Part shown: one piece after another, positions 4,819-36,289 of the stretch
How the letters are laid out: each line of letters starts with the position of its first letter
Numbering within the stretch: position 1 is the first letter of the stretch
From: a phage
Length of the DNA: 64,000 bases
Sequence record: PX670417.1
Reading direction: 5' to 3' (one strand)
Made by a program: the position numbers and the translations under genes
The notes under the pieces: generated by a model
What the model saw: the letters and a program-made list of their open reading frames with translations, nothing else
Told to the model about the DNA's origin: nothing
Databases searched by the model: none

Positions 4819-5143
4819 GGTATTTCTCCAAGTTTCTTTTTAGATATAACCAACCATAGTCAGTTCTTTCTACACCCATGAAGAGTGGAGCCATTACAAC
4901 TTTACCAAAAGTATTTCTGTGTAGGCAGATTTCAAAGGAATATTCTTTCTCAATATCAATCCCATATTTGTACAGGACTGCTTTTAAAACTTGTTCATTA
5001 TCCAGAAGTGTATCTGGAGTCTCACCATACTTCTCAAGTAACGGGTCATTCATAAACACCGTCATAGAAATATTGTAGTTTGAGAAGTGGCTCTTCTGAG
5101 CCACAACCTCTTTATTAATGTTCTGTGAATCCATTATAACCAA
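4811..5143 (-). CDS. hypothetical protein
   Basis: ORF track 110 aa, co-directional with neighbours. Confidence 0.5.
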   Translation of the reverse strand: MVIMDSQNINKEVVAQKSHFSNYNISMTVFMNDPLLEKYGETPDTLLDNEQVLKAVLYKYGIDIEKEYSFEICLHRNTFGKVVMAPLFMGVERTDYGWLYLKRNLEKYRV

Positions 5144-5870
5144 CCCCTTTTAACCAGCACTTCAGGTTATTAGCATCATAATTCAGTTTCGGGTATGAGG
5201 TTACATGGAACTGCTCACCATCATAGTAGACAATATCTGCAATCCATAGTCCATTCTCTTTACAGAAATCTTTATCTGCTTTAGAGGTAATTGGATTAAC
5301 TTCTACAAAACCATCTACACCCAAATCCTTTAAGCTACCTACAATACCTTTGCAGATAACGCATGTCTCAGATACTACCACAAAAAGTTCTTGGCTTTCA
5401 AGCTCTACAATGTATTCACCAAGCTGTACTTTAGGGAGATTTGATTGCTTCATAATCTTCCCATCGGCTGCACGGACAATCGCATACCACTCTTTACCAT
5501 CAACCACTGACATTCTGATAATACACTCTTGACCAGTACGCTTCTCAATATCTGCAAGACGTTTTAAAGCTTCTTCATAGTCATCTGTGTACTTCAGGTC
5601 ATTATTATGGCAAACAGCTTTCATAGCACCGTTATGGTCATGTTGTGACAGGTAAATCAAACCGTCAAGAACATATTGCAAATCTGCCTGAGCATCAAGT
5701 GTCTCAATGGGGTCTTTCTCTTCAATTGCTTTCACAAGCTCTTTTGCTTCTTCCAGCATACATAAAGATTGAGACTTTAAAGATTCCCAATACTCGTCAC
5801 TGTAAGGTTGCTTTTGAGTGTTCCCACAACGAAGGTTCCAGTTTTTTACTGATTCTCTTGAGTTAAACAT
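5115..5870 (-). CDS. hypothetical protein with possible MazG-like nucleotide pyrophosphohydrolase N-terminal domain
   Basis: 251 aa; segment LEEAKELVKAIEEKDPIETLDAQADLQYVLDGL resembles MazG EExxE...D motif pattern; assignment tentative. Confidence 0.4.
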   Translation of the reverse strand: MFNSRESVKNWNLRCGNTQKQPYSDEYWESLKSQSLCMLEEAKELVKAIEEKDPIETLDAQADLQYVLDGLIYLSQHDHNGAMKAVCHNNDLKYTDDYEEALKRLADIEKRTGQECIIRMSVVDGKEWYAIVRAADGKIMKQSNLPKVQLGEYIVELESQELFVVVSETCVICKGIVGSLKDLGVDGFVEVNPITSKADKDFCKENGLWIADIVYYDGEQFHVTSYPKLNYDANNLKCWLKGVGYNGFTEH

Positions 5871-13523: not shown

Positions 13524-16223
13524 ATGGAAAACATAGATTTTAAAAACTTACATTTGGTTGGTGATACAGAGACTGATGGTTTACTCCTTGAGTTCACTAA
13601 AGTTCACGTAATGGCTTTTGCAGACTATAAATCTGACGATGAAGAGCCACCTGTATGGGTCTTTACAGATGAACCTATCCTCGGTCACAAGTATACCAAG
13701 TACATCAAGGGTGGCTTGCGTGAAGGTGTTGAGTTTGCGTTAAAGGCAAAACGTCTTTGCATCCACAATGGTCTGGGGTATGACTGGTGGGTTTTCAATC
13801 ACATTGCACCTGATTTGTGGAACTTTGATAATCCAAAGTGTAAGCCGTGGAGTAATTTCTTTCAGGATTCTCTTATCCAGTCTCGTGTTCAGTGGATGGA
13901 TAGACCAACTCCAAAGGGCTACAAAGGTGCTCATGGCTTGGCAGCATGGGGTGCTCGTGTTGGTGTCCGTAAACCAGAGATTGAACATTGGGGTGTGTGG
14001 AATGCAGAAATCTTCACTCGTGTTGTGGAAGATATCCGTATTAACGCCAAAACTAAACGTGCACTGGATAATGAATATCTGAAGTTAAAGAAGTGTGGCG
14101 TAGACACCTATGAAACTTACATGCGAGCTAAAGAAACATCTTTCTGGATGAGTCAACAAGCTATCAATGGTTGGAAAGCTGATAAAGAGCTTATGGAGTT
14201 CCATGTAAAGGAACTTGACAAGTTGACTAATGAGCTTGCTTCAGAAGTTGAACCACATCTTCCTCCAACTATTAAGACTAAAGGTAAAGTCACTGGAGAA
14301 GAATTTGCAAAAGCTTGGAATGAGTATGTTGAAACATTTGGTCATGCAGATGGACTGAAGAGAATTACCAAGTACCCTAAGACAAAGTATCGTCAACAGG
14401 TACGTAACGGTGAGATGCAGACATATGAAATTAAACCATTTGGTAAGCCAACTACAAAGATTTTTAACATTGAAAAGCGGAATTGCTATACACCAACAAA
14501 CTCTGTAACTGGTGAAGAGTACAAGGAAGGCTTTGTAGCAATGAAGGATGCTCGTGCAATTTGCAATGAGTTGAATGCAAAGATTGGTAAGAAATGCAAA
14601 GACTGGAAGCCAGTAAAAACAGTTAAGACTGTGAAGTACTATAACAGTCATGTTGTTAACCACTTTGAACTTGAGTCAAGTCGCTACACAGGTTTGATTG
14701 ATGCGCCATATACACCAATTGAGTTCGAAGTTTCTCGTATGACTCAGGTAGCAGTTGTTAAAGACTACCTGAAATCAGTTGGTTGGATTCCAGATGACTG
14801 GAACTACAAGAAAGACTCGGATGGTCGTCCTGTCAAAGTTTGTCGTTTCAAAGACAACAAAAAGATGATTACAAAACATCCTAAGTGGCAGGAGATGGTG
14901 GAACGGTGTGGCTTGAGTTATGTTGAACACGAAGGTGTCCAGTACATTGAGCATAACTGGTCTGTGAAGAAGTACACAGATTTGCTTGAACCTTGCTTAA
15001 TCCGTACTTCACCAAAACTTACTGAATCATCTTATGATACGATTGAAGGTGAGCTTGGACAGAAGATTGCTAAGTACTATACTTTGATGCACAGACGCAG
15101 AACTATTGAGAACTCAAAGGATGATGAAAAAGGTTGGTTGAACCAGATTCGTCCTGATGGTCGCCTTAGTGCTGGTGCAATGGTGTTTGGTACTTCAACT
15201 GGACGTATGACACAATATGGTATTGTAAACGTACCGTCTGGTGCTGCTGTCTATGGGGAACCAATGAGGGCAGTGTGGATTTGTGAAGAAGGCACTAATG
15301 TTGTCTCTGTGGATATGAACTCAGCCCAGCTAGTTCTTCTTTGTAACTTTATGGGTGACAAAGACTTCACCAAAGCGGTAACACAAGGTAAAGAAGAGAT
15401 TGAGTTTATTCGTCAAGAAGATGGACGCTATTACTGCAAACACTTTGATGAGTACCTCAACCCAGAGATTGATAAGTACCTTCGCTATGACTCTGAGAAT
15501 GACCTTTACGTTGTCTATTCAGGGACTGATGCACACACACTGAACAGTATTTACTTTAGCTTGAATGATGAGCAGGACATCTTGACTTGTCGAGCTACTC
15601 AGGATGAGAACCTTCTACACGAGATTAGTAAGGGTCGTAAGAAAGCTAAGAATGGTATCTATGCACTGCTGTTCGGTGCAGGTGATGAGAAGTTTGCTAA
15701 GACGATTAAAGCTGCAACTACTCAGGAAGGCGCACTGACTAAACAGACTTACTTTATTCGTTTGCCTAAAATTAAGAAACTGCTAGATGACTTGGAAGCT
15801 GACTACAAAGCGATTAAAAAGGCACTTGAAGAGGTGTTTGGTAAGACTGCTGCAATCTCTAAAGGGGGTTTTGTAAAGGTTGCTGGAGCTTGGTTGTGGT
15901 GTAAATCTCCACACAAACTGTTGAACTATCTTTTGATGGGTTCAGAGGCGCAGATTCAAAATGAGGCAATTAACCTTGCTTGTCGTCGTATGATTGACGA
16001 AGGTTTGATGAAGTTGAATGGTCGTCAACCAGCTATTGGTGCTCGTTTGCTCTGCGCATATCACGATGAGACGAGTTGGGAATGTCCAGAAAGTATGACG
16101 GCAGAGGTGAAAGCTGTTACTGACTGGTATTATGGACAAGCTTCTAAGAACTTAGGTCTTAAGAAAGAAACGCTTGTTACAGGTACTGGTAAGGTTGGTA
16201 AAAGCTGGTATGAGGTACACTAA
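13524..16223 (+). CDS. DNA polymerase, family A (with 3'-5' exonuclease domain)
   Basis: 899 aa; Exo I-like DTETDGL near N-terminus; motif B-like KKAKNGIYALLFGAG; motif C-like YHDE. Confidence 0.9.
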   Translation: MENIDFKNLHLVGDTETDGLLLEFTKVHVMAFADYKSDDEEPPVWVFTDEPILGHKYTKYIKGGLREGVEFALKAKRLCIHNGLGYDWWVFNHIAPDLWNFDNPKCKPWSNFFQDSLIQSRVQWMDRPTPKGYKGAHGLAAWGARVGVRKPEIEHWGVWNAEIFTRVVEDIRINAKTKRALDNEYLKLKKCGVDTYETYMRAKETSFWMSQQAINGWKADKELMEFHVKELDKLTNELASEVEPHLPPTIKTKGKVTGEEFAKAWNEYVETFGHADGLKRITKYPKTKYRQQVRNGEMQTYEIKPFGKPTTKIFNIEKRNCYTPTNSVTGEEYKEGFVAMKDARAICNELNAKIGKKCKDWKPVKTVKTVKYYNSHVVNHFELESSRYTGLIDAPYTPIEFEVSRMTQVAVVKDYLKSVGWIPDDWNYKKDSDGRPVKVCRFKDNKKMITKHPKWQEMVERCGLSYVEHEGVQYIEHNWSVKKYTDLLEPCLIRTSPKLTESSYDTIEGELGQKIAKYYTLMHRRRTIENSKDDEKGWLNQIRPDGRLSAGAMVFGTSTGRMTQYGIVNVPSGAAVYGEPMRAVWICEEGTNVVSVDMNSAQLVLLCNFMGDKDFTKAVTQGKEEIEFIRQEDGRYYCKHFDEYLNPEIDKYLRYDSENDLYVVYSGTDAHTLNSIYFSLNDEQDILTCRATQDENLLHEISKGRKKAKNGIYALLFGAGDEKFAKTIKAATTQEGALTKQTYFIRLPKIKKLLDDLEADYKAIKKALEEVFGKTAAISKGGFVKVAGAWLWCKSPHKLLNYLLMGSEAQIQNEAINLACRRMIDEGLMKLNGRQPAIGARLLCAYHDETSWECPESMTAEVKAVTDWYYGQASKNLGLKKETLVTGTGKVGKSWYEVH

Positions 16224-16229
16224 TTAGTA

Positions 16230-16259
16230 TTGACAAGGTGCTCATGGAAGAGTACCTTA
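16230..16259 (+). promoter_or_regulatory. promoter-like element starting with TTGACAAGGTG
   Basis: TTGACA at 16230-16235, 17-bp spacer, TACCTT; directly upstream of gene at 16285. Confidence 0.45.
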
Positions 16260-16284
16260 TACAATATCTTATATAGGAGGGCTT

Positions 16285-16494
16285 ATGAGCCACCGTGGAA
16301 GAACCCATGCAGCGATGATGAAAGGTGCTTCAAAGGAAACTATCAAGAACCGTAAGCAGAAGTTGTTTGAGAGGATGAACAGACTAATTGACAATTCATC
16401 TCTTTCAGGTTCTGAGAAGGTTTTCTTGAAAGGTAACCTGAAAAGCATTGCACAAGAGCTTATTGATATTGAATATTGGAGACACCAAAAATGA
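16285..16494 (+). CDS. hypothetical protein
   Basis: ORF track 69 aa; RBS TAGGAGGG upstream. Confidence 0.45.
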   Translation: MSHRGRTHAAMMKGASKETIKNRKQKLFERMNRLIDNSSLSGSEKVFLKGNLKSIAQELIDIEYWRHQK

Positions 16495-16703
16495 CACTTG
16501 CAGACGTTATCCAGCAACTTCACGACAATTGCTATACTCCAGAGTTGATTCAGGAGATGCTTATTGTGGTGATGCCTAGCAAGTTCGTAAAAGGTTTTAA
16601 TCAGGACACTTTAAGGTCTGCGCATATCATTATCGTTGACGGTAAGATTGCAAGAGACCGCACAGGAGTCCTTAAGGGTGAACGTATCAGTATTGTCCTT
16701 TGA
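16491..16703 (+). CDS. hypothetical protein
   Basis: ORF track frame with start moved to ATG 16491 preceded by GGAGA; ATGA overlap with upstream gene. Confidence 0.4.
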   Translation: MTLADVIQQLHDNCYTPELIQEMLIVVMPSKFVKGFNQDTLRSAHIIIVDGKIARDRTGVLKGERISIVL

Positions 16704-16720
16704 GTATTGGGAACACCAAA

Positions 16721-16876
16721 ATGAAACGCAAAGTAAAATTATTTAGTTTATATGGGAGAGTCGGTAAAGGTTTTGATTGGCAACTGCTACGTTCAGATGT
16801 TAAAAGCAACGAATTAGCACAACTCATCATAAACTACCGGCGTACATACAGAGAAGTAGAACATCGTGAACAATAA
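16721..16876 (+). CDS. small protein (51 aa)
   Basis: ATG at 16721 preceded by the same TATTGGnnACACCAAAA element found before 16491; MKRKVKLFSLYGRVGKGFDWQ... Confidence 0.3.
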   Translation: MKRKVKLFSLYGRVGKGFDWQLLRSDVKSNELAQLIINYRRTYREVEHREQ

Positions 16877-16891
16877 AACAGGAGATGTGTT

Positions 16892-17128
16892 ATGTGGAAA
16901 GCAGTAATTGCACTTGGTGTTATTTTTCTAGCTGGCTGCAACCCTTCTTATGAGGATAAAAATGCTTCTTATAGCCTCCCACCAGAGATGCAAGATTGCA
17001 AAGTCTATAAGTTACATGGTGATGCCATAAGCAGAGATATTGTTGTTGTCAGATGTCCAAACTCTCAAACAACAACATCTTATAGCTATGGCAAAAATGG
17101 TCAATCACATACTACGGTTATTGAGTGA
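16892..17128 (+). CDS. small lipoprotein (signal peptide with LAGC lipobox); candidate superinfection-exclusion protein
   Basis: MWKAVIALGVIFLAGCNPSY... has hydrophobic h-region followed by lipobox L-A-G-C. Confidence 0.5.
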   Translation: MWKAVIALGVIFLAGCNPSYEDKNASYSLPPEMQDCKVYKLHGDAISRDIVVVRCPNSQTTTSYSYGKNGQSHTTVIE

Positions 17129-17138
17129 GGTTTTAACG

Positions 17139-17345
17139 ATGGAAGTCCTAGTAAACTATATCTACTGTTATGATGTTGTTCACTCCACTACAACCGTAGC
17201 TCAACGTAACCCAATCGTTCCACGAGAAGGTGAGTTGGTTCGCATCAAGGGTTGGACTTACACTGTGGAAAGCATCATTCATAAGTTTGATGTTGCTGGT
17301 GATGTTCAAGTGATTGACGTAGAGATTGGTGGTAAGAGAAAATGA
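17139..17345 (+). CDS. hypothetical protein
   Basis: ORF track frame, start at ATG 17139 after GAGG. Confidence 0.4.
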   Translation: MEVLVNYIYCYDVVHSTTTVAQRNPIVPREGELVRIKGWTYTVESIIHKFDVAGDVQVIDVEIGGKRK

Positions 17346-17560
17346 CTGTAGAAGATAAATTTAAGAACGCAGTTCTTACAGAAGATGGTGAGCTTGAAAC
17401 ATTCATTCTTCGTGTTGATGGTAAGCTATTCCGGTGTCGTTGTGGGTCAAACTGTTTCCATAAACCAGATAAAAATGACTTAGAGCTTTACGCATGTAAT
17501 GCTTGTTACACTTGGTATCACTCAGAGGTTAAAAATGACAATTCTGTACAAACAAAATAA
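17342..17560 (+). CDS. small Cys-rich (zinc-ribbon-like) protein
   Basis: 72 aa with CRCGSNC and CNAC pairs. Confidence 0.45.
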   Translation: MTVEDKFKNAVLTEDGELETFILRVDGKLFRCRCGSNCFHKPDKNDLELYACNACYTWYHSEVKNDNSVQTK

Positions 17561-18635
17561 AGACGGCTCTTTTAACGTCTGGTCATGCGTTGCTGTAGGT
17601 GACAAAGTTGTTACAACCTACGGTAAAGAAAATGGCAAGATGATGTTTGAAGAGTATACAGCAGAACCTAAAAACATCGGTAAAAAGAATGAGCGTAACG
17701 CTGAACAGCAAGCTCTCTTTGAAGTTGCTGCTAAGTATAAAAAGCAAGTTGACCGCAAAGGTTATGCTTACACAAAAGAGTCTGCACATAACACTGAAAA
17801 GGTAGGTGTACAGCTTGCTCATGATGCTGCAAAAGTTAGTCATGCAAAGTATTTGATATTCCCTGCTGATGCTCAACCAAAACTTGATGGTGTTCGTTGT
17901 AGAATTTCAAGAGATGCTGATTCAGTTAGCTTCACGGCTTATTCTCGTGAAAATACTGTTTACAACGTCCCAGCAGAACTAATCCCAGATTTGCTTTTGT
18001 TGCTTAAATTGCATCCACAAGTCGAGGACTTTGATGGTGAGATTTATGCTCATGGCTGGGACTTAGAAGATATTGTATCTATGATTAAGAATGCTGACAA
18101 TCCAGACCGTCACCTTCTTAAATTCTACTGGTATGATATCTGTGACAATTCAAGAACTTGGCCTGAGCGTCGTGAAATTATTGATAGCTCACCCATTATT
18201 GAGCTTGGTGATACCTGTAGAGTAGTTCCTGTACAGACTATCCGTGTTAACTCTTGGGAAGAGTTTGATGAAGCTCATGATAAGTGGGTTGAAGCTAAGT
18301 TTGAAGGTGCAATGTACCGTTCAATCTCTGAAGATTCCTTCTACGAGTGTTGTCACCGTTCATACTTCTTGATTAAACATAAGAAGATGCACACTGAAGA
18401 GTTTAAAGTGACTGGTGTCAAGACCGATAAACGTGGTCATGGTAAGTTCGTTGTAGAGACTCTTCCTAACGTCTTTGTAGATGTCTCATGGAAGACTACT
18501 CATGAGAAGAAACAGTATCTTGCTGAACATCCTGAAGAGTTTATCGGGAAGCCTTTAACGGTTCAGTTCCAGAAGATGACTCGTAAGGGTTCTTTGCAGT
18601 TCCCTGTTGGGTTAGTCATACGAGATTATGAATAA
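17535..18635 (+). CDS. ATP-dependent DNA ligase
   Basis: Motif I KLDGVR (adenylation lysine); start set to ATG 17535 with GAGG RBS. Confidence 0.75.
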   Translation: MTILYKQNKDGSFNVWSCVAVGDKVVTTYGKENGKMMFEEYTAEPKNIGKKNERNAEQQALFEVAAKYKKQVDRKGYAYTKESAHNTEKVGVQLAHDAAKVSHAKYLIFPADAQPKLDGVRCRISRDADSVSFTAYSRENTVYNVPAELIPDLLLLLKLHPQVEDFDGEIYAHGWDLEDIVSMIKNADNPDRHLLKFYWYDICDNSRTWPERREIIDSSPIIELGDTCRVVPVQTIRVNSWEEFDEAHDKWVEAKFEGAMYRSISEDSFYECCHRSYFLIKHKKMHTEEFKVTGVKTDKRGHGKFVVETLPNVFVDVSWKTTHEKKQYLAEHPEEFIGKPLTVQFQKMTRKGSLQFPVGLVIRDYE

Positions 18636-18641
18636 AAGTTG

Positions 18642-18669
18642 TTGACATAGAAAATTTGGTGAGTATACT
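18642..18669 (+). promoter_or_regulatory. sigma70-like promoter TTGACA-16-TATACT
   Basis: TTGACA 18642-18647, TATACT 18664-18669; transcript would run through repeat region R1. Confidence 0.55.
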
Positions 18670-18699: not shown

Positions 18700-18738
18700 C
18701 ATCACTTAAGAGTCTTTGAAAAGGGTTTTTAAGTGATG
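18700..18738 (+). other. long hairpin (10-bp stem CATCACTTAA / TTAAGTGATG), copy 1
   Basis: Perfect 10-bp inverted repeat with 19-nt loop; second copy at 20224-20262. Confidence 0.5.
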
Positions 18739-18749
18739 TGTAGCTCGGT

Positions 18750-18815
18750 CAGGTATGGTGCGGTGGTGTAAGGTGGTGTCAGGTGTAGTATGGTGCGGTG
18801 AGGTTCGGTATGGGT
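18750..18815 (+). repeat. GGT-rich degenerate short tandem repeat tract (R1a)
   Basis: ggtatggtgcggtggtgtaaggtggtgtcaggtgtagtatggtgcggtgaggttcggtatggg; 5-6 nt periodicity. Confidence 0.6.
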
Positions 18816-18819
18816 AGTT

Positions 18820-18852
18820 AGTCTCAGCTACATTAAAATGAGACTTATCTTT
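18820..18852 (+). other. conserved hairpin AGTCTCA-gctacattaaaa-TGAGACT followed by T-run (terminator-like), copy 1
   Basis: 7-bp stem; near-identical copy at 20329-20353; variant copy at 20197-20222 keeps pairing through compensatory changes. Confidence 0.55.
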
Positions 18853-18885
18853 TTAAAAGGTCTTTAAGAGGGTCTTTTAATAAGG

Positions 18886-18950
18886 TGTGGTAGGGTTAGG
18901 TGGAGTTGGGTATGGTGTGGTGTGGCACGGTGTGGGTGGATGGTAGTAGC
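18886..18950 (+). repeat. GGT-rich degenerate short tandem repeat tract (R1b)
   Basis: gtggtagggttaggtggagttgggtatggtgtggtgtggcacggtgtgggtgg. Confidence 0.6.
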
Positions 18951-19025: not shown

Positions 19026-19631
<606 letters not shown>

Positions 19632-19633
19632 TT

Positions 19634-20074
19634 ATGAATACAAAAGCATTAGCAGCAAAGTTTAGTTACGGCGACACTGTATCACATTCCGAGATGGACA
19701 CCTTCTTAGGTATTGTGAAGCCAACCTATCAAGGTGACATTGTTAAGTACGAAGATGAAATGAAGGCTTATGCACTTACACGTCTAAACCGACTTGAGAA
19801 GTTTATTGAAAAGCTTCTTAAAGAAGAGAAGATTTATCTGGTTGCTTCAATGGGTGTTGGTTATCGTGTGGTTGAACCTAAGCATCAAGCAACTATTGCA
19901 AAACGCAAAATGTCTGGTAAGATTGGTCGAGCTTTAAAGCAAGCCACTCAAGCAATTGAGAATGTGAACACTATGGCGCTTAGTCATCAAGAACGTTCAC
20001 GACTGATTGAACAGCAAAACCATTTAGCTGCTATGAAAGCTAACATTAACAAGCAACGTAGAAAACCTTTCTAA
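19634..20074 (+). CDS. hypothetical protein
   Basis: ORF track 146 aa; followed by terminator. Confidence 0.55.
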   Translation: MNTKALAAKFSYGDTVSHSEMDTFLGIVKPTYQGDIVKYEDEMKAYALTRLNRLEKFIEKLLKEEKIYLVASMGVGYRVVEPKHQATIAKRKMSGKIGRALKQATQAIENVNTMALSHQERSRLIEQQNHLAAMKANINKQRRKPF

Positions 20075-20085
20075 GTTGACTAGGT

Positions 20086-20110
20086 AGCCTCTTCGGAGGC
20101 TCCTTTTTAA
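20086..20110 (+). terminator. rho-independent terminator (AGCCTC-ttcg-GAGGCT + T-run)
   Basis: Stem 20086-20101 then CCTTTTT; same hairpin sequence as terminator at 4456-4473 in opposite orientation. Confidence 0.65.
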
Positions 20111-20139
20111 AAGGTCTTTTAAGAGGGTCTTTTAATGAG

Positions 20140-20196
20140 GTAAGGTGCGGTCTGGCAAGGCATGGTATGGTTGGGTGAGGTGAGGTATGGGTAGTT
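20140..20196 (+). repeat. GGT-rich degenerate short tandem repeat tract (R2a)
   Basis: taaggtgcggtctggcaaggcatggtatggttgggtgaggtgaggtatggg. Confidence 0.6.
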
Positions 20197-20222
20197 AATC
20201 GGAGCTACATTAAAATTCGATT
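20197..20222 (+). other. variant hairpin AATCGGA-gctacattaaaa-TTCGATT
   Basis: Same loop as 18820 and 20329 hairpins but different stem sequence that still pairs (three compensatory differences incl. one G-T wobble). Confidence 0.55.
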
Positions 20223-20223
20223 A

Positions 20224-20262
20224 CATCACTTAAGAGTCTTCTAAGAGGGTTTTTAAGTGATG
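20224..20262 (+). other. long hairpin (10-bp stem CATCACTTAA / TTAAGTGATG), copy 2
   Basis: Same stem as 18700-18738; loop differs at a few positions. Confidence 0.5.
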
Positions 20263-20264
20263 TT

Positions 20265-20328
20265 CGGTAGGGTCTGGTAGGGTAAGGTCTGGTCTGGTAG
20301 GGTCTGGTAGGGTGAGGTATGGGTAGTT
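20265..20328 (+). repeat. GGT-rich degenerate short tandem repeat tract (R2b)
   Basis: gttcggtagggtctggtagggtaaggtctggtctggtagggtctggtagggtgaggtatggg. Confidence 0.6.
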
Positions 20329-20360
20329 AGTCTCAGCTACATTAAAATGAGACTTACCTT
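20329..20360 (+). other. conserved hairpin AGTCTCA-gctacattaaaa-TGAGACT followed by T-run, copy 2
   Basis: Near-identical to 18820-18852 including flanks (about 80 nt direct repeat 18806-18888 vs 20318-20399). Confidence 0.55.
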
Positions 20361-20394
20361 TTTAAAAGGTCTTTAAACAGGGTGTTTTAATAAG

Positions 20395-20456
20395 GTGCTG
20401 TATGGTGGGGTAAGGTAGGGTTAGGCGAGGTCAGGTGAGGTTTGGTATGGAAGGAT
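20395..20456 (+). repeat. GGT-rich degenerate short tandem repeat tract (R2c)
   Basis: gtgctgtatggtggggtaaggtagggttaggcgaggtcaggtgaggtttggtatgg. Confidence 0.6.
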
Positions 20457-27140: not shown

Positions 27141-28289
27141 TTAAGCTGTTCTCTGCCATACATACAATACGAAGGATGGCTGTTCAACGCTAAATGCTTG
27201 ACCAGAACCAGTTGTGCCAGTTGTGCCAGAGTGAGAATGCTCACCTGCTCCGGTTACTGTTACTGTTGCTGAGTGGTTGTGAGAACCAATTGCAACAGTG
27301 TGGCTGTGAGCACCAATCCCAACCGTGTGATTATGCGCACCAATTGCTACAGAGTGAGTGTGGTTGTTAGCTGTTGTCAACGTAGCTCTTGGGTCATAGC
27401 TTGCCCCCTCAACCGATAAACCTCTCCAGCCACCATCAGCATAGCCACGGTTAATGAATGTTGTTTGTGTTAAGCCAGCAGCACTGGTTGTTCTGTTGCC
27501 ATAGTCGTAAGTAGATACGGTCTTGGTTCCGTAGTCAAACGTTGTAGTCCCTTTAGTGCCATAATCAAAAGCACTGATAGAGGCCGTTGCACCATGAGTG
27601 TGACCACCACCAGTGACGTACACTGAGTGGGTATGTGCAGGGATGTTATTAACCGTCAGTGCAGCAGTCTGTGAACCAAACGTTGAACCAACTGGCCTAG
27701 AATCACTATCATAACCTACAAGTGCTCTCCCTTTTGAGACTAACTCCCAAGTACCCCCACAAATTAAATATGTAGAGGGGTTTGCAGGATTCATAGAGAG
27801 ATGGATAGTACCTACTGGATAAGAAGCCTGAACAGCCTTGTACAAGTTATTTACTGCTCTTGCTGTAGCATACTTATCTGCATCTTCATTATAAAGGTTA
27901 GATGTTGTCCAGTTCTGGACATTACTTAAACCAACCTGCGCCTTAGTTGTATTGTGTGGGTTACTCTTGTCATTAATATGCTGTTGAATAAGACTATTAA
28001 CCTCTACTGAAGACATAATCTGTAGATTTTTTCTTGCCTCAGCTACATTAACAATATCTGATAAGTTATTTGCAGCAACTAACTGAAGAGCATTAATAAC
28101 ATTATCTAAACCAATTTGTGTTTTAGTAACACCATGAGGGTTATTTCTTAGGCTTGAGTGTGGAGCAAGTAATTGCTCAAGAGTACATCTCTTATCCTCA
28201 ATACCCTGCTTAAGATGGAAGATATCACTAAGGTCAATTGGTAAGGCTGCTTGAGGCAAGGCACTAATTTGAATTTCACCTACTGCCAT
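27141..28289 (-). CDS. tail fiber protein with His-rich (HxH repeat) C-terminal tip
   Basis: 382 aa; repeated NPHxxTKxQxGLxNV motifs; C-terminal HTHSVAIGAHNHTVGIGAHSHTVAIGSHNHS. Confidence 0.65.
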   Translation of the reverse strand: MAVGEIQISALPQAALPIDLSDIFHLKQGIEDKRCTLEQLLAPHSSLRNNPHGVTKTQIGLDNVINALQLVAANNLSDIVNVAEARKNLQIMSSVEVNSLIQQHINDKSNPHNTTKAQVGLSNVQNWTTSNLYNEDADKYATARAVNNLYKAVQASYPVGTIHLSMNPANPSTYLICGGTWELVSKGRALVGYDSDSRPVGSTFGSQTAALTVNNIPAHTHSVYVTGGGHTHGATASISAFDYGTKGTTTFDYGTKTVSTYDYGNRTTSAAGLTQTTFINRGYADGGWRGLSVEGASYDPRATLTTANNHTHSVAIGAHNHTVGIGAHSHTVAIGSHNHSATVTVTGAGEHSHSGTTGTTGSGQAFSVEQPSFVLYVWQRTA

Positions 28290-28291
28290 TA

Positions 28292-36289
<7,998 letters not shown>

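What the first reader, a model, noticed from the sequence alone, without database searches (positions are those of the whole stretch)
16892..17128. Small early-region lipoprotein: candidate superinfection-exclusion factor
A 78-aa protein with a signal peptide and LAGC lipobox is encoded among early genes. Small phage lipoproteins such as T5 Llp block the phage receptor after infection, so this is a candidate receptor-masking protein.
Basis: inference. Interest (0 to 1): 0.4.

Follow-up and report, generated by a model that had tools for sequence, protein, structure and literature searches.

The report
Early phage lipoprotein, DUF4884 family
A Felix O1-like phage encodes a genuine small lipoprotein in its DNA-replication gene block; it belongs to a very large, phage-only family of unknown function (DUF4884 / PHROG 902) and shows no relationship to the T5 receptor-masking protein Llp, so a role in blocking secondary infection remains an untested guess.

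Summary
Window 16892..17128 (+) encodes a 78-aa protein with an AGGAG ribosome-binding site, a signal peptide and an L-A-G-C lipobox (Cys16). It lies between the DNA polymerase and DNA ligase genes of a Felixounavirus. The gene is real: dN/dS is about 0.05-0.07 in the mature region, and it matches PHROG 902 (E 4e-17) and carries the precomputed tag Pfam DUF4884. The family has 1,164 clusters (50% identity) at E<=1e-3. Members occur in Felix O1-like, T5-like (Vibrio), T4-like, jumbo and Acinetobacter phages, always among early genes. The lipid-modified Cys and two further Cys are invariant in the alignments. It is not the o-spanin, which relatives encode elsewhere. The Llp analogy is not supported. 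Mature-region homology to Llp, Cor or Rtp45 is absent, and no fold match was found. The gene is not next to the tail-fibre/RBP genes, and Felix O1-type phages use LPS rather than a protein receptor. Phage Rtp has a probable distant relative (Rtp3) in addition to its validated receptor blocker Rtp45. The gene is dispensable, being absent from HY02 and RPN213. Best guess, at low confidence: an accessory periplasmic effector acting on a conserved envelope target, possibly excluding secondary infection after adsorption. It is an ordinary member of a catalogued but uncharacterised family.

The parts
16880..16884 (+). Ribosome-binding site AGGAG, 7 nt upstream of the ATG
   Evidence: Read directly from the sequence. 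Moogle annotates an RBS at the equivalent place for CPT_Moogle40.
16892..17128 (+). CDS of the 78-aa prolipoprotein, stop codon included; member of DUF4884 / PHROG 902
   Evidence: ORF list. PHROG 902 E 3.7e-17. Precomputed PF16225:DUF4884 on all homologs. dN/dS 0.07-0.125.
16892..16936 (+). Signal peptide, residues 1-15 (MWKAVIALGVIFLAG), ending in the L-A-G of the lipobox
   Evidence: K3, then a hydrophobic uncharged stretch with mean Kyte-Doolittle 2.78 over the last 11 residues. The sequence varies between homologs while hydrophobicity is kept.
16937..16939 (+). Codon of Cys16, the predicted diacylglyceryl-modified first residue of the mature protein. The next residue is Asn, so outer-membrane sorting is predicted.
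   Evidence: Invariant column in A1, A2 and A4. The sorting prediction follows the E. coli '+2 rule' (established knowledge, not tested here).
16937..17125 (+). Mature 63-residue domain, predicted to be a small beta-sheet protein
   Evidence: Two AlphaFold2 models have the same topology at mean pLDDT 67, with strands at mature residues 4-7, 22-27, 35-39, 45-51 and 54-60.
16970..17014 (+). Conserved motif 1: Y27-S-L-P-P-E-M-Q-D-C36-K-V-Y-K-L41, holding invariant Cys36 and near-invariant Pro30
   Evidence: Alignments A2 and A4.
17042..17095 (+). Conserved motif 2: V-V-V-R-C55-P-N-S-Q-T-T-T-S-Y-S-Y-G-K68, holding invariant Cys55 and near-invariant Pro56, Thr60 and Gly67. Cys36 and Cys55 are inferred to form a periplasmic disulfide.
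   Evidence: Alignments A2 and A4. 150 of 176 members have exactly three Cys in the mature part and 169 show the C...C...C[PS] pattern. The disulfide itself is an inference.
16721..16876 (+). Upstream 51-aa ORF (PHROG 2381, function unknown) that is gained or lost together with the lipoprotein gene in Felixounaviruses; a functional link is not shown
   Evidence: PHROG hit. HY02 and RPN213 lack both genes but keep the flanking genes. It does not accompany the lipoprotein in other phage types.

Best explanation
The gene encodes an accessory phage lipoprotein made during the replication phase of infection. SHOWN: it is a conserved coding gene under purifying selection, it has a lipoprotein signal, it belongs to the large phage-restricted family DUF4884 / PHROG 902, it has three invariant Cys, it sits in a replication or early-gene context in every phage type examined, it has no conserved partner gene across phage types, and it is dispensable in nature. 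INFERRED from established lipoprotein biology: the protein is exported by Sec, lipidated at Cys16 by Lgt, cleaved by LspA and acylated by Lnt. [quoted passage not shown] Its 62-residue beta-rich domain, probably stapled by a Cys36-Cys55 disulfide, faces the periplasm. PROPOSED, at low confidence: the domain binds an envelope or periplasmic component that is conserved across gamma-proteobacteria, not a phage-specific surface receptor. In doing so it protects the infected cell from secondary phage attack at a step after adsorption, such as cell-wall penetration, DNA entry or lysis from without, in the manner of T4 Sp/Imm or TP-J34 Ltp. This differs from the T5 Llp mechanism of masking the receptor.
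For: Real gene and lipoprotein signal. Family membership: PHROG 902 E 3.7e-17; PF16225:DUF4884 precomputed on every homolog. Family size: 1,164 clusters (50% identity) at E<=1e-3 and 595 at E<=1e-10. Phage-restricted: no relative in 185,579 species genomes for the VVRCPNS[QNT]T subfamily. Early context in six phage types: near ori-binding protein, helicase and ligase in a Vibrio T5-like phage; near RNA ligase and PNK in an Erwinia jumbo phage; near a sigma factor in Asteriusvirus; near rIIA, rIIB and dam in a Pseudomonas T4-like phage, and in metagenomic contigs. The same domain is conserved across phages of six or more host genera, which points to a conserved target. No conserved neighbour gene. 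Felix O1-type phages use LPS, not a protein receptor (PMC8594841). Rtp has the validated receptor blocker Rtp45 plus a probable family relative, Rtp3, at its early end, which suggests a different job. The residue after the lipid Cys is Asp (inner-membrane retention in E. coli) in 38 of 176 members, including those of E. coli and Erwinia jumbo phages, and Asn, Ser, Thr or Glu in others. That fits a periplasmic target better than a strictly outer-membrane one.
Against: No experiment or homology links the family to any function. The exclusion role rests on analogy, in that the characterised non-spanin early phage lipoproteins are exclusion factors. Strong purifying selection with no sign of diversification is not what an arms-race protein would typically show. 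Rtp3 is only a distant relative: its best PHROG is 6360, PHROG 902 scores E 9e-5, and the mature-only HMM scores 10 bits. The structure models are only moderately confident (pLDDT 67), so the absence of fold matches is weak evidence. Early timing is inferred from position. The bacterial-genome scan used a single exact peptide pattern and could miss divergent bacterial members.
Confidence: 0.3

Rival explanations
1. Llp/Cor/Rtp45-type receptor masking. The lipoprotein would bind the periplasmic face of the phage's outer-membrane receptor and change it so that further phage, or released progeny, cannot adsorb. The receptor could be an unrecognised protein co-receptor, or the LptDE machine that delivers the LPS receptor.
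For: It is a small, disulfide-capable, outer-membrane-sorted lipoprotein made before lysis, like Llp and Rtp45. Rtp45 shows that such proteins can act on LptDE (PMC12685063), a conserved target connected to LPS. It is dispensable, as exclusion genes are.
Against: No mature-region homology to Llp or Rtp45 and a different PHROG. No fold match. Not adjacent to the tail-fibre or RBP genes, unlike known cases. The receptor of Felix O1-type phages is reported to be LPS, not a protein. The domain is conserved across phages with unrelated hosts and receptors. Asp at +2 in many members predicts inner-membrane anchoring. Rtp carries its own blocker in addition to a probable relative.
Confidence: 0.12
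2. A host-takeover or anti-defence effector unrelated to superinfection. The lipoprotein would inhibit or hijack a conserved periplasmic host function, for example a peptidoglycan hydrolase, an envelope-stress sensor such as RcsF/NlpE signalling, vesicle formation, or lysis timing, to optimise the infected cell.
For: Early context among host-takeover-type small genes in all phage types. The domain is conserved across host genera. Strong purifying selection. No linkage to receptor-recognition genes.
Against: No homology or fold similarity to any known inhibitor or regulator. No precedent was found in the literature searches. Nothing distinguishes this from the best explanation except the phenotype, which is untested.
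Confidence: 0.25
3. An o-spanin (Rz1-like) or unimolecular spanin, that is, the outer-membrane lipoprotein component of the lysis machinery.
For: Small phage lipoproteins are most often o-spanins. One family member gives weak PHROG hits to 'Rz-like spanin' (E 6e-4 to 9e-4), over the signal-peptide end only.
Against: Moogle has a separate, overlapping i-spanin/o-spanin pair at 84.4-84.9 kb, while the homolog of this gene (CPT_Moogle40) lies at 28.4 kb. That o-spanin is found in 280 Ounavirinae records, including phages that also carry this gene, such as warpig, REP6, BPS15S6 and HMD-P10. No i-spanin-like neighbour. No C-terminal transmembrane segment, so not a u-spanin (sequence). HY02 and RPN213 are viable without it.
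Confidence: 0.02
4. A chance ORF with a fortuitous lipobox-like string, not a functional gene.
For: A loose PS51257-style rule hits about one ORF per shuffled 64-kb window. Several GenBank records leave the ORF unannotated, for example dune.
Against: An RBS is present. dN/dS is 0.05-0.125. There are 1,164 homologous clusters with invariant Cys positions. The gene occurs in at least six phage lineages.
Confidence: 0.01

Closest known systems
Pfam DUF4884 (PF16225) / PHROG 902: uncharacterised small phage lipoproteins
   Same: Direct family member. PHROG 902 E 3.7e-17. Every homolog carries the precomputed PF16225:DUF4884 tag. It shares the lipobox, the three invariant Cys and the motifs LPxxLxDCxIY and VVRCPNSxT.
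   Different: Nothing distinctive; it is a typical member. The family has no assigned function. The local Pfam-A copy did not return the family in my own scans, so the Pfam assignment rests on the precomputed tags.
T5 Llp, the lytic conversion lipoprotein (PHROG 1119, 'Cor superinfection exclusion protein'; PDB 8a60)
   Same: A small lipoprotein of about 60 mature residues with a signal peptide and lipobox, two further Cys, an outer-membrane-type sorting residue, made before lysis, and non-essential.
   Different: No detectable homology outside the signal peptide. Different PHROG. No fold match. Different Cys spacing: 19 residues between the two non-lipid Cys here, 47 in Llp (sequences). Llp-type blockers lie beside the RBP gene (shown for Rtp45); this gene lies in the polymerase-ligase block. 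T5 uses the protein FhuA as receptor; Felix O1-type phages use LPS.
Rtp45 of phage Rtp, the LptDE-binding superinfection-exclusion lipoprotein (PHROG 4281; PDB 9RPS per PMC12685063)
   Same: A roughly 6 kDa periplasmic outer-membrane lipoprotein with one disulfide. It shows that such proteins can act on a conserved, LPS-related machine.
   Different: No homology: only signal-peptide-level similarity, E 0.043, and a different PHROG. Rtp45 is encoded next to the RBP locus. Rtp additionally has Rtp3, a probable distant relative of the present family, at its early left end.
T4 Spackle (Sp) and Imm; Streptococcus phage TP-J34 Ltp (post-adsorption exclusion proteins)
   Same: Early or prophage-expressed envelope proteins that act after adsorption and do not depend on the identity of the receptor. 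This is the functional model I favour for this protein. What these proteins do is stated from my own knowledge of the literature; it was not tested or looked up here.
   Different: No sequence relationship was detected: the only significant PHROG hit is family 902, and there are no Pfam or NCBIfam hits. Sp is a soluble periplasmic protein, Imm is an inner-membrane protein, and Ltp comes from a Gram-positive system. The resemblance is by analogy only.
o-spanins (Rz1-like outer-membrane lipoproteins)
   Same: Small phage-encoded lipoproteins with outer-membrane sorting.
   Different: Relatives encode a separate spanin pair elsewhere. No i-spanin partner and not in a lysis cassette.

Membership tests
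Bacterial-type lipoprotein (Lgt/LspA substrate) | N-terminal signal peptide with a K/R n-region, an uncharged hydrophobic h-region, and a lipobox [LVI][ASTVI][GAS]C with Cys at position 15-35 | tested here: met
   MWKAVIALGVIFLAG-C16 passes my PS51257-style rule and a stricter filter that leaves it as the only ORF in the window. The Cys is invariant and the lipobox is present in 176 of 178 relatives.
Bacterial-type lipoprotein (Lgt/LspA substrate) | Actual lipid modification and globomycin-sensitive cleavage | not testable with these tools
   Requires labelling and processing experiments.
DUF4884 (PF16225) / PHROG 902 | Significant match to the family profile | tested here: met
   PHROG 902 E 3.7e-17 over residues 1-76. 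Precomputed PF16225:DUF4884, unmarked (E<=1e-5), on homologs. Caveat: the local Pfam-A scans did not list it.
DUF4884 (PF16225) / PHROG 902 | Family hallmarks seen here: three invariant Cys and the motifs LPxxLxDCxIY and VVRCPNSxT...GK | tested here: met
   C16, C36 and C55 are invariant; P30, P56, T60 and G67 are near-invariant.
T5 Llp / Cor superinfection-exclusion lipoproteins (PHROG 1119) | Sequence homology of the mature domain | tested here: not met
   hhalign on the mature regions only: probability 2%, with 14 of 200 shuffles scoring as high. The full-length score came from the signal peptide. Llp falls in PHROG 1119, this protein in PHROG 902. The PDB profile search matches Llp 8a60_B at E 9.5 over residues 1-18 only.
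T5 Llp / Cor superinfection-exclusion lipoproteins (PHROG 1119) | Gene encoded beside the cognate receptor-binding protein gene | tested here: not met
   The gene lies between the DNA polymerase and ligase genes. By synteny with Moogle, the tail-fibre gene is about 7.5 kb away on the opposite strand. In the Vibrio T5-like phage the homolog is also in the replication module. For the arrangement of known cases see PMC8594841 and Rtp.
T5 Llp / Cor superinfection-exclusion lipoproteins (PHROG 1119) | The phage uses an outer-membrane protein receptor that the lipoprotein can bind from the periplasm | tested here: inconclusive
   The literature says Felix O1-type phages target LPS and not protein receptors, and that Bas63 needs an intact LPS core (PMC8594841). 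The receptor of this particular phage is not known.
T5 Llp / Cor superinfection-exclusion lipoproteins (PHROG 1119) | Structural similarity to Llp | tested here: not met
T5 Llp / Cor superinfection-exclusion lipoproteins (PHROG 1119) | Expression blocks adsorption or infection by the cognate phage | not testable with these tools
   Requires adsorption and plating assays.
Rtp45-type LptDE-binding exclusion lipoproteins (PHROG 4281) | Sequence homology | tested here: not met
   The family HMM against Rtp45 gives E 0.043 and 8.4 bits, at signal-peptide level. Rtp45's PHROG hits are 4281, 1119 and 3641, not 902.
o-spanin (Rz1-like) | Encoded within, overlapping or adjacent to an i-spanin gene in the lysis region | tested here: not met
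   The neighbours are PHROGs 2381 and 4427, both of unknown function. Relatives carry a separate overlapping i-/o-spanin pair near PNK and rIIB. tblastn of that pair against the window finds nothing, because the locus lies outside the window.
u-spanin (T1 gp11-like) | N-terminal lipoprotein signal plus a C-terminal transmembrane segment | tested here: not met
   The C-terminus ...GKNGQSHTTVIE is hydrophilic and has no hydrophobic segment.
Known anti-phage defence or exclusion proteins in PADLOC | Profile match | tested here: not met
   No PADLOC family at E<=10.

The most novel reading that the evidence does not exclude
DUF4884 proteins would be a widespread, phage-specific class of lipid-anchored periplasmic effectors, with a fold not represented among solved structures. 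They would bind a component conserved across gamma-proteobacterial envelopes, for example a cell-wall hydrolase or tail lysozyme, or the LptDE or another trans-envelope machine. This would give LPS-binding and other virulent phages a receptor-independent way to shut the door behind themselves, by a mechanism distinct from Llp, Cor and Rtp45.
Probability: 0.2. Interest if true: 0.6.

Novelty: new member of a known kind. Interest (0 to 1): 0.3.

Why it matters
This particular gene is ordinary. About 200 Felix O1-like genomes in GenBank hold near-identical copies, and the family is already catalogued as DUF4884 and PHROG 902. The family is what deserves attention: a small early lipoprotein of unknown function, kept under strong purifying selection in very different virulent phages (Felix O1-like, T5-like, T4-like, jumbo, Acinetobacter myoviruses and perhaps T1-like) and apparently absent from bacterial genomes. 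How LPS-binding phages prevent secondary infection, or protect the envelope of the infected cell, is poorly understood. This family is a cheap, testable candidate: a single 78-codon gene, with natural deletion variants available for comparison. A clear phenotype would assign a function to more than a thousand protein clusters and could be relevant to the design of phage cocktails.

Tried and rejected
1. Sequence libraries. Pfam-A, NCBIfam, PADLOC and PDB sequence searches with the single protein found nothing meaningful. The PDB profile search gave signal-peptide-level hits only.

2. Homology to Llp. A full-length hhalign gave 91.6% probability, but this was a signal-peptide artefact, as shown by mature-only alignment with shuffles.

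3. o-spanin and u-spanin readings. Both were rejected using the Moogle annotation, the distribution of the true spanin pair, and the lack of a C-terminal transmembrane segment.

5. Conserved partner gene. None is shared across six phage types within +-2.5 kb.

6. Bacterial or prophage homologs. The full alignment was too diverse for the locus finder. A motif-based scan of 185,579 species genomes found no relative.

7. Test in T5 (does a phage with Llp also carry a family member?). Uninformative: nothing in the first 45 kb of T5, and no enterobacterial T5-like hits by tblastn. I did not scan the remaining 77 kb of T5.

8. Literature. No functional study of DUF4884, PF16225 or a Felix O1 lipoprotein was found. 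Papers on BME3 and the UAB phages turned out to concern other phage types.

9. Promoter and terminator scan. It did not differ from shuffled expectation, so it gave no independent evidence on timing.

Full report
**1. What is there**

Window 16892..17128 (+) is an ATG-initiated ORF of 78 codons. AGGAG lies at 16880-16884, 7 nt upstream of the ATG. The product is MWKAVIALGVIFLAGCNPSYEDKNASYSLPPEMQDCKVYKLHGDAISRDIVVVRCPNSQTTTSYSYGKNGQSHTTVIE. Residues 1-15 form a typical signal peptide: K3, then an uncharged hydrophobic stretch. L13-A14-G15-C16 is a lipobox.

The window comes from a Felixounavirus, a Felix O1-like myovirus of E. coli and Salmonella. A 4-kb stretch around the gene is 90-95% identical to phages ZX4221, dune, CL1 and many others. 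The gene sits on the same strand as DNA polymerase (13524-16223) and DNA ligase (about 17.5-18.6 kb), tightly packed between them among five other small ORFs. All of those fall in PHROGs of unknown function.

**2. Is it more than chance?**

The lipobox string alone is not. A PROSITE-PS51257-style rule, which I coded from memory, is met by 3 ORFs in the window and by about 1 ORF per shuffled window. A stricter filter leaves only this ORF. Conservation settles the matter:

- The gene has dN/dS of 0.07 against Citrobacter phage Moogle and 0.125 against phage dune, and 0.05-0.07 over the mature part.
- It matches PHROG 902 at E 3.7e-17.
- Every homolog found carries the precomputed Pfam tag PF16225 = DUF4884. 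My own scans of the local Pfam-A copy never returned that family. I could not resolve this discrepancy.
- An exhaustive profile search found 1,164 clusters (50% identity) at E<=1e-3 and 595 at E<=1e-10.
- Among 178 members examined, 176 pass a lipobox pattern and the other two have Y-G-C boxes. 150 of the 176 have exactly three Cys in the mature part.
- In alignments of 38 and 149 sequences the only invariant columns are Cys16 (lipid attachment), Cys36 and Cys55. Pro30, Pro56, Thr60 and Gly67 are nearly invariant. The hydrophobic core of the signal peptide varies freely in sequence.

This is the signature of a real, exported, lipid-modified protein, probably with one periplasmic disulfide. The disulfide is inferred.

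**3. Distribution and context**

tblastn finds the protein in about 200 Ounavirinae genomes at 60% identity or more. At 30-48% identity it occurs in about 295 T5-like Vibrio phages (114 kb), jumbo phages of Erwinia, Yersinia and E. coli (Eneladusvirus, Asteriusvirus), Acinetobacter Saclayvirus, and a Pseudomonas T4-like phage. A structure search of viral models adds Aeromonas T4-like phages Aeh1 and phiAS5, Vibrio JSF10 and Acinetobacter ME3.

In every case the gene lies in a run of small early-type genes:
- next to the ori-binding protein, helicase and ligase in the Vibrio phage;
- near RNA ligase and PNK in the Erwinia jumbo phage;
- near a sigma factor in Asteriusvirus;
- near rIIA, rIIB and dam in the Pseudomonas phage;
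- near ligase, sigma factor, phosphatase and HNH genes in metagenomic contigs.

No neighbouring gene is shared between phage types. A scan of one genome from each of 185,579 bacterial and archaeal species with the motif VVRCPNS[QNT]T found no relative. At least this subfamily therefore looks phage-restricted and is not a prophage gene.

Within Felixounaviruses the polymerase-ligase block is mosaic. HY02 and RPN213 lack the lipoprotein gene together with the 51-codon ORF just upstream (16721-16876) but keep the flanking genes. Frameshifted 64-aa variants also exist. The gene is thus accessory.

**4. Ruling out the spanin reading**

Small phage lipoproteins are most often o-spanins. In Moogle, which carries spanin annotations, the homolog CPT_Moogle40 (28366-28602) is 'hypothetical'. 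A separate overlapping i-spanin/o-spanin pair lies at 84.4-84.9 kb, next to PNK and rIIB. That o-spanin is present in 280 Ounavirinae records. These include phages that also carry the present gene, such as warpig, REP6, BPS15S6 and HMD-P10.

The window corresponds to Moogle 11.0-76.2 kb, so the spanin locus lies outside it. The protein has no C-terminal transmembrane segment, so it is not a unimolecular spanin either.

**5. Testing the Llp analogy**

The T5 Llp sequence I recalled was verified as 100% identical to llp in X75922 and AY543070. The tests gave these results:

- A profile-sequence comparison scored 91.6% probability. The alignment consisted of the signal peptide plus an eight-residue stretch.
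- With signal peptides removed, the probability is 2%, and 14 of 200 shuffled Llp sequences score as well.
- Llp belongs to PHROG 1119 ('Cor superinfection exclusion protein'). Rtp45, the LptDE-binding exclusion lipoprotein of phage Rtp (PMC12685063), belongs to PHROG 4281. The present family is PHROG 902.
- Two AlphaFold2 models (38 and 149 sequences) agree on a small five-stranded beta structure, but only at mean pLDDT 67.
- Known receptor-blocking lipoproteins are encoded beside their RBP (PMC8594841; rtp45 beside rtp44/43). This gene is about 7.5 kb from the tail-fibre gene and on the other strand.
[quoted passage not shown] A lipoprotein on the periplasmic side has no obvious way to mask LPS directly.
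- Phage Rtp has, besides Rtp45, a second small lipoprotein at its early left end, Rtp3 (1120-1383). Rtp3 aligns with the family motifs (…C-x-x-Y-R-F…C-x-x-S-T…Y-K-S-G-R). It scores PHROG 902 E 9e-5 (best PHROG 6360), my family HMM 2e-9 full length and 3e-5 mature only, and gives near full-length BLASTP hits to members. If Rtp3 is a true relative, this kind of protein coexists with a dedicated receptor blocker and presumably does something else.
- A T1-like phage is also reported to carry a 'DUF4884 domain-containing protein' among its early genes (PMC12210894).

**6. Sorting signals**

The residue after the lipid Cys is Asn in Felixounaviruses. By the E. coli +2 rule (established knowledge), this predicts outer-membrane sorting. 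It is Asp, the inner-membrane retention signal, in 38 of 176 members, including those of E. coli and Erwinia jumbo phages. A family that tolerates anchoring to either membrane fits a periplasmic target better than a strictly outer-membrane one. This is inference. The strength of Asp followed by Ala, Gly or Ser as a retention signal, and the sorting rules in non-enteric hosts, are uncertain.

**7. Most likely mechanism**

Shown: a real, conserved, dispensable, phage-restricted lipoprotein gene in the replication module.

Proposed, confidence about 0.3: the domain binds a component conserved among gamma-proteobacterial envelopes. This protects the infected cell from secondary attack after adsorption (wall penetration, DNA entry, lysis from without), in the manner of T4 Sp/Imm or TP-J34 Ltp. 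The comparison with those proteins is by analogy, from my own knowledge, not from homology.

Rivals:
- a host-takeover or anti-defence effector unrelated to superinfection (0.25);
- Llp/Rtp45-type receptor or LptDE masking (0.12);
- spanin (0.02);
- chance ORF (0.01).

The remaining probability is for functions I have not thought of.

**8. Comparison with what is known, and verdict**

The protein is a typical member of DUF4884 / PHROG 902, a catalogued but uncharacterised family. I found no functional study of it. It may work like an exclusion lipoprotein, but it is not a member of the Llp/Cor or Rtp45 families, because the defining features that could be tested were not met.

- Novelty: new member of a known kind.
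- Interest: 0.3. The single gene is ordinary. The family, with more than a thousand clusters in very different virulent phages, is a reasonable target for a simple expression and deletion experiment.

Noticed in passing
window 18700-18935 and 20102-20445 (also 18642-18669 and 20086-20101): Five copies of an intergenic repeat of about 89 nt flank the two genes at 19029-20074. Each copy has a palindromic head (TTTTAAAAGGTCTTTTAAGAGGGTCTTTTAAT-like) followed by a G-rich (GGTNNG)n tail. A near-consensus sigma-70 promoter (TTGACA-16-TATACT) lies at 18642-18669 and a terminator-like hairpin at 20086-20101. Phage dune annotates 'repeat_region' at the same place. These could be iterons or an origin, or repeated promoter/terminator cassettes.
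   Followed up: partly
L002 (Escherichia phage dune, MN850636) 4920-5153: dune encodes the lipoprotein (95% identical), but it is not annotated there. The start of the downstream gene dune_64 is over-extended into it. The gene's presence in GenBank annotations is therefore under-counted.
   Followed up: yes
window 16721-17128; L017 (HY02) and L018 (RPN213): The lipoprotein gene and the upstream 51-aa ORF (PHROG 2381) are absent together from HY02 and RPN213, while the flanking small genes are kept. They behave as a two-gene indel in a mosaic block. Only 161 of 259 records cover at least 80% of window 16230-17600.
   Followed up: partly
L015 (phage Rtp, AM156909) 1120-1383: Rtp3, an unannotated-function 87-aa lipoprotein at the early left end of Rtp, looks like a distant relative of the family (PHROG 902 E 9e-5; the motifs align). 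It coexists with the validated exclusion lipoprotein Rtp45 at 27687-27917.
   Followed up: partly
proteins P0013 and P0014; L003 (Salmonella phage GE_vB_B3, UNVERIFIED) 4968-5228: Frameshifted or truncated versions of the gene exist (64 aa, diverging after about residue 46). They are either decaying copies or sequencing errors.
   Followed up: no
tool results for window 16892-17128 and homologs: The precomputed annotations list PF16225:DUF4884 on every family member. The local Pfam-A hmmscan never returns that family, even at E<=10. The local library may lack or have changed this model.
   Followed up: no
window 17499-17560: The mechanical ligase ORF start at 17499 is probably too far upstream. 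Homologs align from residue 12, and Moogle's ligase is 366 aa. The 72-aa ORF 17342-17560, a Cys-rich zinc-ribbon-like protein in PHROG 5768, would then overlap the ligase start only slightly.
   Followed up: no
family alignments A2 and A4 (position +2 after the lipid Cys): The sorting residue differs systematically between phage groups: Asn or Lys in Felixounaviruses, Asp in enterobacterial jumbo phages, Glu in Vibrio T5-like phages, and Ser or Thr in Acinetobacter and Pseudomonas phages. This suggests that different members are anchored to different membranes.
   Followed up: partly
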